The translations under genes were made by a program, and so were the position numbers. Under the pieces are notes generated by a model. That model was not told the DNA's origin. It saw only the letters and a program-made list of their open reading frames with translations, and made no database searches. From Octopus vulgaris (lineage: Eukaryota), in contig OX597817.1 in assembly GCA_951406725.2 (NCBI GenBank), positions 166,780,001 to 166,844,000 on the forward strand: a stretch of DNA of 64,000 bases, in the 5' to 3' direction. This document shows positions 1 to 49,246 of the stretch, piece after piece (the first letter of the stretch is position 1; each line of letters starts with the position of its first letter).

Positions 1-799
1 AAAGATCAGAAGCAGTCCAACGTGTCGTGTATGCAAGCAACAAAATGAAACCATTGACCATGTGGTCTCCAAGTGCAGTCTTCTAGCGCCTACAGAGTAT
101 CTCAACAGGCACGATAGAGCTGCACAATATATTCACTGGGTAATCTGTAAAAACCTGGATTTGCCCCATGAAAAAAACTGGTGGGAACACAAACCACCCC
201 CAGTGCTTGAAAATGACCACATCTCACTCCTCTGGAACTTCACCATTCAAACTGACAGGAAGATAGATGCAAATAGGCCAGACATCATATTGAAAGACTT
301 CAAACAAAGAACATGCCTCCTCATTGATATGACTGTCCCAATCGATATAAACGTATCTGTCAAGACCTACCAAAAACTGAGCAAATATAAAGATCTTGAA
401 ATAGAAATCAGCAAAATGTGGAAGCTGAAGACTAAAACAATACCTGTTGTCATAGGTGCCCTGGGAATGATAGCAAAAGGGGCTGATAGCTACCTAACTC
501 AGATACCAGGAAACCCAAAAATGGCAGAAGTTCAAAAGATAGTGCTCATGGGAACTGCTCATATCCTACGCAAAATACTCTCTATGTAATCTCAAGGTTT
601 AAAACAAACATAATTTTCGGTTTAAAAAAAAAAAAAAACACTTTTTTTTTAGACATTCATTAGTACAACATCCCCATCCCCCAAATATATGGCACACTAG
701 GCATAACAACAACATGAACTTCCAACCCTGTTGTCTCTTGAGGTCTCTGGGTGAGACTTGGAGCCAACTTGTACAAATATAAAGCAAAAGTCAAACATA

Positions 800-15737: not shown

Positions 15738-16300
15738 TACAAGGTGTCACCAAAAGATGTGTACGCAATTTGAATTTCTCAGTCTTTTTAAAATACCTTT
15801 TGTTTTCAAAATTCAATATAACGCACAGACAGAAATTAATATTTTTATGAACGCCTGTTTTCACATTGATCACCCTTAAGCTCCAGTCATCGCTGATGAC
15901 GCGAAGCAATGTACCCAAAAGCATCAAGAAATATTTCGTTCGGTATTTGTACGCGTTCCGGTTCAATGAGGATCCCCTCATTTCGTCGAAGGTTACCAGT
16001 TTTGTACAGTAAAATTTGCCTTTTAAGTATCCTCACAAAAAACATGTTTACGAGTGCGAGGTCCGGTGAACGTGGAGAGTGAGTATTCGAGTATTCTACG
16101 GAACTTCTCCGTCCTGTTAGGTAATATTTCTTCAAGATTGGCCCTACATTTCTATGATAGTTTCAGGGGTCTCGTCTTGCTCCAAATAAAACTCCAAGTC
16201 TTCAGAATCCTATTGAATGCTTTGCATGGCAGATTGTAGCAGCAAGTTGAAGTAAATGGGACCCAGTCAGAGTACTGTGAAAGGAAAAGAAGGGTCTAAT
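15738..16300 (-). pseudogene. Tc1/mariner-superfamily transposase relic with possible terminus
   Basis: SPRSPDLALVNMFFVRILK resembles WPPRSPDLTP.DFFLWG.LK. TA-CAAGGTGTCACCAAAA at ~15738 resembles a TIR. Confidence 0.65.
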
Positions 16301-16537
16301 TAACTGTTTTGATGATAAGCTGCACCATAGAGTAACTCGTGGTAAATTAGCATGATATTCATCCGTAATATGCAGATTCTCAGGCCCCCAATAGGTAAAA
16401 TTTTATCTTTTATCTTTTACTTGTTTTGTATATTCCGAAAGTATCTTAATGTAATCCTTATCTTTGTCTAAAAACACTGACTATTTTCTGAAAGTAACCT
16501 AATGTAATCCTTATTGTCCTCTTAGGAGATCGAAAAT

Positions 16538-16580
16538 CCACCTGACGAATGTCATTGAAGACATGAAACGATTGTAGTGG
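16538..16580 (+). ncRNA. Minimal type-I hammerhead ribozyme motif with intact core (Penelope-like element relic)
   Basis: Stem I ccac/gtgg, core CUGACGA, stem II atgtc-attgaa-gacat, GAAA, quasi-palindromic stem III ACGAUUGU, cleavage triplet GUA. Confidence 0.8.
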
Positions 16581-16759
16581 CGGTTTATTTCTTTATATTA
16601 AAATTTTTTATGTATTGATTAAGTCTTTCCTTGTATGTTTTGCAAAATAGTGGTTTTGTCTCGAATTAATATTATATAATATTTTACTATAAAATTGGGT
16701 TTAATCCTAAATCTGATTTTTTCCCTGTAAATTTGGATTTATTCCCTAATATTTATTAT

Positions 16760-16810
<51 letters not shown>

Positions 16811-17561
16811 TGGTGCTATTAAGTTAGACATGGCCTGGACCAATCATTGGTCGAAACATATCTAAATTTATCTAAGTTTATATATATATATATACAGCGG
16901 ACGTCATGCAGTTTCTGCCTACCAAATCCATTCACAAGGCTTTTGTCGGCCAGAATGTAAAGTAGAAGACACCTGCCCAATGTCCACGGATTTTCGGAAC
17001 GTTAGTTGTGCACATGAACAGTTTCATCTGCTTCAACCTTACCTCTAATTTCAATGATGGTAAGTGATGTTGGGAGATCTGTTTGAAACTCCCTCCTAAA
17101 CTATCATTACACTTCGACCGCGTTTTTCAATTTTACGTAGCATTTTAGGGAAACGTTCTTTTGTTCAAATCTTTGTCAGGTTTCCTTCAGTACTTATAAT
17201 GAGTTAAATCCGAAGAGAAAAAAAAATTGAATTATCAGTTGAAGCTTTTGTGGGGGGATGCACCGAACAAATACACACGTACATACATACATACATACAT
17301 ACATACATACATACATACATACATGCATGCATGCATGCATACATTATAAGTACATTATAAGTACATGCATACATACATACATACATACATACATAAATAC
17401 ATACATACACACATAAATACATACATACATATATAAATACATACATACATACATGCATACGTAAATACATACATACATGCATACATAAATACATACATAC
17501 ATACATACACACATCTATATATATATATTAAATATACCCAACTGTACCGAGGATCTAACAC

Positions 17562-19934: not shown

Positions 19935-20365
19935 TTACTCTCTCTCTCTCTCTTTTACTCTTTTACTTGTTTCAGTCATTTGACTGCGGCCATGCTGGAG
20001 CACCACCTTTAATCGAGCAACTCGACCCCGGGACTTATTCTTTTGTAAGCCCAGTACTTATTCTATCGGTCTCCTTTGCCGAACCGCTAAGTTACGGGGA
20101 CATAAACACACCAACATCGGTTGTCAAGCAATGCTAGGAGGACAAACACAGACACACAAACACACACACACGCATATATATATATATATATATACATATA
20201 TACGACAAGCTTCTTTCAGTTTCCGTCTACCAAATCCACTCACAAGGCTTTGGTCGGCCCGAGGCTACAGTAGAAGACACTTACCCAAGGTGCCACGCAG
20301 TGGGACTGAACTCGGAACCATGTGGTTGGTAAACAAGCTACTTACCACACAGCCATTCCTGCGCC
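19935..20365 (-). mobile_element. SINE family A, full length
   Basis: High identity to other family A copies. Confidence 0.93.
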
Positions 20366-48731: not shown

Positions 48732-48767
<36 letters not shown>

Positions 48768-49246
48768 GACGGACTTCTTTCAGTTTCTGTCTACCAAATC
48801 CACTCACAAGGCTTTGGTCACACCAAGGCTATAGTAGAAGACACTTCTCCAAAGAGGCATGTGTGGGACTGAACCCGGAACCATGTCCTTGGGAAGCAAG
48901 CTTCTTACCACATAGCCATTCCTGCTTTGTATATGCACATAGAAAGGTTAACACCCAAATGAAGTCATTATGCATATATATGTGTGTGTGTGTATCGGAA
49001 GGGAGAGAGAGAAAGTGGGATAGAGAACCAGAATAAATAAATATAAATATATATGTATATATGAATGACTCGAAAATTTAAAGAAATTAACAGCCATGAA
49101 ACGATCGTAGTGTGATATTAATTATATTGTTTTAATAATTTTGTTATATATTTAAGTAATATAAATTAAATAATCTTATGTATTGGCTTAAGTTTTTCAT
49201 TGTATGATTTGCCTAATAGTGGTTTTGTCTCTAATTTAATATAATA

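What the first reader, a model, noticed from the sequence alone, without database searches (positions are those of the whole stretch)
16538..16580. Catalytically complete minimal hammerhead ribozyme in a (TA)n-terminated insert
Seen: every conserved core nucleotide (CUGANGA, GAAA, UH as GUA), a 4-bp stem I, a 5-bp stem II and a tiny quasi-palindromic stem III (ACGAUUGU, one change from ACGAUCGU). Downstream sequence (16610-16680) is homologous to 49177-49246, and that second copy is preceded by the half-motif catGAAACGATCGTAgtg at ~49095-49112. Both inserts end at (TA)n. Established: minimal type-I hammerheads with palindromic stem III are characteristic of Penelope-like element pseudo-LTRs and can cleave as dimers. 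Inference: this could be a live self-cleavage site in any transcript crossing it on the + strand.
Basis: partly seen in the sequence, partly recalled or inferred. Interest (0 to 1): 0.75.

Follow-up and report, generated by a model that had tools for sequence, protein, structure and literature searches.

The report
Hammerhead in spliced Penelope retrocopy
This complete hammerhead ribozyme motif, predicted to cut only as a pair, lies in one of hundreds of short genomic copies of a known type of jumping gene; these short copies lack the gene's intron exactly at its splice signals, so they were likely copied from its spliced RNA, which may explain why only the intron-keeping copies still carry the gene.

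Summary
The hammerhead is real: all core nucleotides are present, 0 of 200 shuffles give such a motif, and the genome holds 298 exact copies. It belongs to the pseudo-LTR/5'UTR of a young Hydra-clade Penelope-like element (PLE) with ~840-aa RT + GIY-YIG ORFs, where such ribozymes are known. Two copies fold as a double hammerhead; a monomer does not. Cutting is not shown, and most copies were made from uncut RNA.

Spliced junctions outnumber intron-keeping ones 230 to 62, follow each subfamily's own donor, and stop at an Inr-like start. All 18 ORF-bearing leaders seen keep the intron. Head-to-head pairs are 21 spliced/spliced, 10 unspliced/unspliced, 0 mixed. This argues for sense-RNA templates and against the published antisense idea. 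I found no paper reporting it in 10 searches. The scan noted spliced PLE retrocopies before in two other genomes, and the short/long-end rule in this one.

The parts
16522..16528 (+). Last 7 nt of exon 1 of the parent PLE (TTAGGAG); the copy is 5'-truncated here, 20 nt short of the inferred start site
   Evidence: In parents L043 and L075 these bases are followed by the donor GTATGT; 230 exact spliced junctions in G000
16529..16537 (+). Start of exon 2; in the parent it follows the intron acceptor (TATTTTAG)
16538..16580 (+). Minimal type-I hammerhead: stem I 16538-41/16577-80, core 16542-48 and 16565-67, stem II 16549-53/16560-64, self-complementary helix III 16568-75, predicted cut after 16576
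16581..16682 (+). Rest of the pseudo-LTR / 5'UTR up to the 'short' 3' end (inferred RT start site 1)
   Evidence: Inverted partner arms end here
16683..16760 (+). 78-nt 'tail' up to the 'long' 3' end (inferred RT start site 2); in parents the sequence runs on about 55 nt to the ORF's ATG
16762..16808 (.). (TA)n target run
49068..49245 (+). 5'-truncated copy of sister family D, cut off inside stem II; it keeps only GAAA-CGAUCG-UA and the 3' side of stem I, and ends at the 'short' end plus (TA)n

Best explanation
The motif is a complete minimal hammerhead in the 5' leader of a Hydra-clade Penelope-like retrotransposon, and this window copy is likely a dead-end reverse transcript of that element's spliced RNA, inserted at a (TA)n run. 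Shown: the parent unit is exon 1 (27 nt), a 1.1-1.9-kb GT-AG intron, the hammerhead, the rest of the 5'UTR, an ~840-aa RT/GIY-YIG ORF and a long spacer, repeated as a partial tandem. Short copies join exon 1 to exon 2 exactly, and ORF-bearing copies keep the intron. Inferred: transcription starts at an Inr-like site (TCACTT) and the intron is spliced. The protein nicks both strands of (TA)n and starts reverse transcription internally, at two fixed sites in the 5'UTR, one per strand. On a spliced RNA those sites lie only 180-260 nt from the 5' end, so the product is a short ORF-less cDNA; two such cDNAs are usually joined head to head by microhomology. Only longer, unspliced precursors that reach the next repeat's start sites would give ORF-bearing copies, so 'intron retention' would be a survivor effect. 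The ribozyme would cut only as a dimer through its 8-bp self-complementary helix III, probably inefficiently, and cutting is not needed for insertion.
For: Parent and clade: (9 of 20 fetched regions hold an ORF from Met to the end of the nuclease); Hydra hallmarks match. Splicing: 230 spliced against 62 intron-keeping exact junctions in subfamily B. In subfamily A, 14 of 30 are spliced, 15 keep the intron and 1 ends at the junction. The junction follows each subfamily's own donor: B GAG|GTATGT; A CTT|GTAAGT, shifted 4 nt; A2 TAT|GTAAGT. Family D copies are also mostly joined, with a donor seen only in a relative. 55 of 57 spliced B arms end between -27 and -7, 10 of them exactly at -27. 0 of 18 ORF-bearing leaders are spliced. 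61 of 61 close inverted pairs have one short and one long end. Pairs with both junctions: 21 S/S, 10 U/U, 0 mixed (P about 2e-8 if arms were independent). Dimer: co-fold MFE is the double hammerhead, -20.8 against 2 x -7.8 kcal/mol. Helix III variants ACGAUCGU, ACGAUUGU and ACAAUUGU all stay paired, and the stem II closing pair swaps A-U/U-A. Internal RT start at two sites, on both strands, with uncut RNA as the main substrate, was shown in vitro for another PLE (PMC11167929).
Against: No raw RNA reads were available, so the spliced RNA, its start and any cut are not observed. One locus (L243, 2 of 57 arms) is spliced but runs about 100 nt past the inferred start. A few intron-less master copies could have been re-amplified. 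No intact ORF was found for the window's own subfamily B (L043 is frameshifted; L075 and L086 hold only the 3' half), so the mobilising protein is inferred. No poly(A) site was located. Covariation is thin: 1 pair changed on both sides, 23 of 500 shuffles reach the score; subfamily C has a U-U mismatch in helix III. 23 of 78 arms end at +47..+70, just 3' of the cut site (+48), against 13 at +1..+46, which may mean that some templates were cut.
Confidence: 0.75

Rival explanations
1. The short copies form non-autonomous (SINE- or retrozyme-like) families: splicing was captured once per subfamily, and a few intron-less masters were then transcribed and copied many times.
For: Spliced B copies are very uniform (mean 1.13 substitutions per 145 nt, 63 arms). 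One indel allele occurs in 17 of 43 unspliced arms but only 2 of 63 spliced ones. L243 starts upstream of the normal start. An intron-less Penelope promoter construct was still transcribed (PMC2377424).
Against: No substitution separates spliced from unspliced B arms. The junction recurs with at least three different donors seen directly. 55 of 57 arms stop at or 3' of the start site, so they lack the upstream promoter half. No tandem array of the spliced unit was seen in the loci fetched.
Confidence: 0.15
2. The hammerhead does cut in vivo (as a dimer or with protein help), and a sizeable class of inserts is copied from the 3' cleavage product and trimmed back to the nearest A/T microhomology.
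For: Arm ends are about 3-fold denser at +47..+70 than at +1..+46, and 8 of 49 loci have both arms ending at +55..+70. L146 and the ORF-bearing L113 begin at the cut site. The core is invariant across subfamilies.
Against: Only 1 of 78 arms starts at +47/+48, whereas the transcript start (-27) is the commonest single end. The +55..+70 ends lie in an A/T-rich, partly palindromic stretch where fold-back or centre deletion is expected. The queries excluded ends beyond +61/+70, so the right edge of the cluster cannot be seen. Tests in subfamilies A and D returned nothing.
Confidence: 0.3
3. The exact loss of the intron is a DNA deletion in a master element, not splicing.
For: In B and C, exon 1 and the intron both end in AG, a 2-nt microhomology.
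Against: In A and A2 the junction has no AG homology and moves 4 nt to a new GTAAGT donor. The copies stop at an Inr-like site.
Confidence: 0.03
4. This particular copy is a functional self-cleavage site in a host transcript.
For: The core is intact and identical to the family's commonest form.
Against: It is a solitary copy with a monomer active-like fold probability of 0.02 or less. No host coding exon was detected among the 150 longest of 211 complex ORFs scanned. It is one young copy among hundreds.
Confidence: 0.05

Closest known systems
Hydra-clade PLEs, e.g. Hydra-1_Obim (Craig et al. 2021, PMC8557442; passages, section 11, supplement File S1/S2 tables and alignment excerpts seen)
   Same: C-terminal GIY-YIG, DKT, a WK motif (RIKWK), CxCX5C linker, no CCHH, CxxC and CxH, YRDD, (TA)n targets, a hammerhead with a non-G-C pair closing stem II, and inverted 5' copies with a tail.
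   Different: A different family from Hydra-1_Obim (other hammerhead sequence). The unit is ~6.3 kb against <3 kb for those described. It has an Asn-rich linker, a kilobase 5'UTR intron and a 78-nt tail (30-40 nt is typical). No intron or spliced copies are reported for Hydra in the parts seen.
Minimal PLE hammerheads and D. virilis Penelope (Cervera & de la Pena 2014, PMC4209133, parts 1-2 of 4; Schostak 2008, PMC2377424, passages)
   Same: Type I, short helix I, palindromic helix III, predicted dimer. A 5'UTR intron ends right at the hammerhead, and the start is Inr-like. Close pairs on opposite strands were already noted.
   Different: The conserved G10.1-C11.1 pair is absent (A-U, U-A or U-U). 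In Penelope the spliced form is described as RNA; here it is the majority form of short genomic copies in subfamily B.
PAc / Poseidon of Anolis (Frangieh et al. 2024, PMC11167929, parts 1-2 of 4)
   Same: Two internal RT start sites define the tail, both strands are cut and extended, and uncut RNA is the substrate.
   Different: A different clade; its start sites lie inside the ORF and no splicing is involved. The strict one-short/one-long pairing is not reported in the parts read.
Adineta vaga Penelope elements (Arkhipova et al. 2013, PMC3846280, passages)
   Same: Head-to-head inverted pLTRs, a tail on one arm, a TCACT Inr-like motif and Asn-rich ORF inserts.
   Different: That paper proposes self-priming on an antisense template to explain inversions and intron retention, and leaves the sense alternative open. 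Here both arms of 21 inversions carry a sense-strand splice junction.
Animal non-LTR retrozymes (Cervera 2020, PMC7229834, passages; Li et al. 2026, 10.64898/2026.07.22.740005, part 1 of 5 and passages)
   Same: Non-coding hammerhead repeats linked to PLE pLTRs.
   Different: Retrozymes are tandem arrays; these copies are single or head-to-head. One local 69-nt tandem exists (L067-L071).

Membership tests
Type-I hammerhead ribozyme | Core CUGANGA, GAAA, UH with three helices | tested here: met
Type-I hammerhead ribozyme | Match to an Rfam hammerhead model | tested here: not met
   no hammerhead family at E<=10; one search showed none among the 150 listed of 371 matches
Type-I hammerhead ribozyme | Self-cleavage at the NUH site | not testable with these tools
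   Genomic 5' ends inconclusive; no raw reads
Minimal PLE hammerhead (Cervera 2014) | Palindromic helix III allowing a dimer | tested here: met
   subfamily C has one U-U mismatch
Minimal PLE hammerhead (Cervera 2014) | G10.1-C11.1 pair with an extra nucleotide after A9 | tested here: not met
   A-U, U-A or U-U at this place, as in many published Hydra motifs
Hydra-clade PLE | Single ORF with RT and C-terminal GIY-YIG | tested here: met
   by motif inspection against the published alignment; Pfam and PDB gave no RT or nuclease hit
Hydra-clade PLE | DKT and RWK motifs | tested here: met
   QSDKTRN; RIKWK, with K in place of R
Hydra-clade PLE | CxCX5C linker, no CCHH, CxxC and CxH | tested here: met
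   CTCRDKSNC / CTCRDKFKC, CYLC, CRH
Hydra-clade PLE | (TA)n insertion, pLTR hammerhead, partial tandem and inverted copies, tail | tested here: met
Hydra-clade PLE | Placement in an RT phylogeny | not tested
   Reference sequences were seen only as excerpts in the supplement; no tree was built
Hydra-clade PLE | Generally short (<3 kb) | tested here: not met
   Hammerhead-to-hammerhead unit about 6.3 kb; a descriptive rather than diagnostic feature
PLE (general) | Intron retained after retrotransposition | tested here: inconclusive
   Met for 18 of 18 ORF-bearing leaders; not met for most short B copies
Non-LTR retrozyme | Head-to-tail tandem units, each with a hammerhead | tested here: not met
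   one exception, the 69-nt tandem
Non-LTR retrozyme | Expressed circular RNA | not testable with these tools
   Only contigs were available

The most novel reading that the evidence does not exclude
Penelope-like elements do not avoid spliced RNA; they copy it constantly. Because reverse transcription starts inside the 5' leader, spliced mRNA yields only short, ORF-less head-to-head cassettes, both arms copied from one sense RNA at two fixed start sites, while only longer unspliced precursors give coding copies. This would explain PLE intron retention, the inverted pLTRs, the one-sided tail and the mass of solitary genomic hammerheads by a single rule, and it would rule out the antisense-template model.
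Probability: 0.5. Interest if true: 0.7.

Novelty: new variant of a known kind. Interest (0 to 1): 0.5.

Why it matters
The ribozyme itself is ordinary for its clade. What matters is the record left by a young family with intact masters. Why PLEs keep introns is called unknown (PMC8557442), and whether they copy antisense or unspliced sense RNA was left open (PMC3846280). Hundreds of exactly spliced inserts, spliced on both arms of inversions and never on the ORF-bearing copies seen, make both questions directly testable. They also give fixed RT start sites, a transcription start and intact ORFs for an in vitro Hydra-clade system.

Tried and rejected
Rfam: no hammerhead hit; the miRNA hits in the window are microsatellite artefacts. 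Monomer folding z-scores are unremarkable. The sequence upstream of the insert is not the parent: 15785-16402 is an old repeat at about 68-70% identity, and tblastn finds no PLE ORF in the window. Pfam and PDB did not recognise the ORF. One search gave 40 homologues, 39 at 26-43% identity and 1 at 63% over 12% of the query; three are named cephalopod records. No RNA holder was listed on record. Contigs of four runs only guessed to be RNA covered the pLTR part, and one had a loose end at the acceptor that reads like subfamily C exon 1; genomic spliced copies could supply it, so it is not used as evidence. A splicing-controlled fold switch (the intron end extends helix I) appears in B, with stem I about 0.9 unspliced against 0.3 or less spliced, but not in A or D, so it was not adopted. 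A cap-derived extra G at -28 was considered; the inverted arm supplies that G in most cases, so it is ambiguous. Cleavage-site tests in A and D returned nothing because common words are skipped. A genome-wide unbiased map of 5' ends was not obtained; the sample is 80 arms in 49 loci. Ten paper searches found no report of abundant spliced PLE inserts. Arkhipova 2003, Evgen'ev & Arkhipova 2005 and Pyatkov 2004 were seen only as citations, and PMC2377424 says 'the majority' of PLEs contain introns, so some intron-less copies may be in print. The supplements of the bioRxiv preprint were not seen.

Full report
Observation. The 43-nt motif at 16538-16580 is as described: a 4-bp stem I, CUGACGA, a 5-bp stem II, GAAA, a C-GAUU-G helix III and GUA. 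It is the only descriptor hit in the window, and 0 of 200 shuffled windows contain one. Rfam does not detect it at E<=10. G000 (2.8 Gb, microsatellite-rich; octopus-like by inference from its repeats and the named homologues) holds 298 exact copies. The insert spans 16522-16760 and is 98-99% identical to the 39 other best-scored dispersed copies. It ends at (TA)n and sits beside an older repeat. The piece at 49068-49245 is a 5'-truncated member of sister family D, whose full copies have a whole hammerhead.

Parent. Two same-strand hammerheads 2.1 kb apart led to L043: leader, RT ORF and partial tandem repeat. A protein search gave 152 matches among 150 scored of 4731 candidates. Of 20 regions fetched, 9 hold an 821-852-aa frame running from Met to the end of a GIY-YIG domain. 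The motifs DKT, RIKWK, YRDD, CxCX5C, CxxC and CxH, and the lack of CCHH, match the Hydra clade as defined in PMC8557442 (section 11; alignment excerpts). That paper already lists hammerheads, (TA)n targets and an Octopus bimaculoides family with a different motif. So the ribozyme is a new member of a known kind. Most intact ORFs belong to sister subfamily A. One (L128) carries a B-like inverted arm. No intact ORF was found for B proper.

The spliced junction. In parents the bases 5' of exon 2 are an intron ending in TATTTTAG, and 1.1-1.9 kb upstream lies TTAGGAG followed by GTATGT. The window copy reads TTAGGAG|ATCG, which is exon 1 joined to exon 2. Exact counts are 230 spliced and 62 intron-keeping; arms count singly, 5 of the 62 come from one tandem, and the window copy is too short to be among the 230. 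In subfamily A, 14 of 30 copies are spliced, 15 keep the intron and 1 ends at the junction. There the junction lies 4 nt further 5', at a GTAAGT donor, and a variant exon (A2) gives its own junction. A single ancestral deletion cannot give this. Family D copies are mostly joined too (1 of 20 shows an intron end), but its donor was seen only in a relative. Of 57 unique spliced B arms, 55 end between -27 and -7, 10 of them exactly at -27, the A of an Inr-like TCACTT. Two arms, at one locus, run on about 100 nt. All 18 distinct ORF-bearing copies with a recognisable leader keep the intron. Ten further loci had no leader hammerhead match; of the nine printed none showed a spliced junction.

Insertion geometry. 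Many inserts are head-to-head pairs between two (TA)n runs. All 61 close pairs have one arm ending at the short end (window 16682) and one at the long end (16760); one three-armed locus showed two long arms. Among 77 pairs, 31 have both junctions readable: 21 spliced/spliced, 10 unspliced/unspliced and none mixed. The arms differ at 0-6 of about 148 aligned positions. This suggests that both arms come from one sense RNA, or one pool, primed at two sites. That fits the in vitro behaviour of another PLE (two internal starts, both strands extended, uncut RNA used; PMC11167929). It does not fit an antisense template (PMC3846280), which could not be spliced at sense GT-AG sites unless it was transcribed from an already spliced insert. 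The window copy has only the long arm and no (TA)n on its left.

The ribozyme. The monomer's active fold (-5.1 kcal/mol) is less stable than its MFE (-7.8), while two copies co-fold as the double hammerhead (-20.8). The helix III variants ACGAUCGU, ACGAUUGU and ACAAUUGU all form 8-bp duplexes. Across 9 hand-picked variants, 98% of pair cells hold, with one pair changed on both sides, which is modest evidence. The G10.1-C11.1 pair conserved in PMC4209133 is absent, as in many Hydra motifs. Such motifs did not cut as monomers and cut weakly as dimers.

Genomic evidence for cutting is inconclusive. In a sample chosen 3' of the site (80 arms, 49 loci; 2 unspliced arms set aside; 3 ends were walk failures and 1 junction arm is spliced on inspection), 36 arms are spliced, 13 end at +1..+46, 23 at +47..+70 and 2 beyond. 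Only 1 begins at the cut itself, as does one ORF-bearing copy. At least the spliced arms were copied through an uncut ribozyme. Nothing suggests a host role for this copy.

Model and limits. Shown: the structure, the exact junctions, the counts and the pairing rules. Inferred: transcription start, splicing in vivo, RT start sites, dimer cleavage, and the survivor explanation of intron retention. The main rival is re-amplification of a few spliced masters. No substitution separates spliced from unspliced B arms, but one indel allele is uneven. Samples come from top-scoring candidates, not the whole genome. No raw RNA reads were available.

Novelty. Hammerheads, inverted pLTRs, tails and a 5'UTR intron next to the hammerhead are published. 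Abundant spliced inserts were not found in ten searches, and key older papers were not readable. Earlier AI notes of this scan report spliced Hydra/PLE retrocopies in two other genomes and the short/long rule in this one. I reached both before seeing them, and they are not independent support. Verdict: a new variant of a known kind, interest 0.5.

Noticed in passing
window 16809-16884: A short repeat right after the TA run. It recurs beside (TA)n in other loci and, on the opposite strand, inside the intron of a related PLE (L238). It has a hairpin followed by GAAAC but no CUGANGA.
   Followed up: partly
window 15785-16402: An old dispersed repeat (68-70% identity to 39 other places scored). 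Its left flank looks like a Tc1/mariner-type end (recalled, not tested).
   Followed up: partly
window 16403-16521: A spacer with a 33-nt imperfect direct repeat (16429-16461 and 16482-16514), directly joined to the insert's truncated 5' end; origin unknown.
   Followed up: partly
window, at least 10 places (e.g. 16878-16988, 20174-20297, 48735-48852): An abundant SINE-like repeat that starts at (TA)n runs.
   Followed up: no
L067-L071 (G000:C6:72319139-72319440): A local tandem of a 69-nt unit holding the acceptor and the whole hammerhead, on both arms of an inversion; it looks like a newborn retrozyme.
   Followed up: partly
L243:1150-1750: Both arms are spliced yet extend about 100 nt upstream of the usual start; possibly a read-through or second start site.
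   Followed up: partly
L026/L149 inverted arm: One arm carries B'-type changes and the other is plain B (6 differences); possibly two templates or conversion.
   Followed up: no
L120-L128 ORFs: A variable Asn/Lys-rich segment between RT thumb and nuclease, like the N-rich inserts of Adineta Penelope elements.
   Followed up: no
L225-L232: Other intact 730-907-aa Hydra-like ORFs with FEDD in place of YRDD at the RT active site; long-stem-II hammerheads lie near several of them.
   Followed up: no
window 2-586: A weak zf-RVT match (E 5e-4, below the cut-off), probably the 3' end of a LINE.
   Followed up: no
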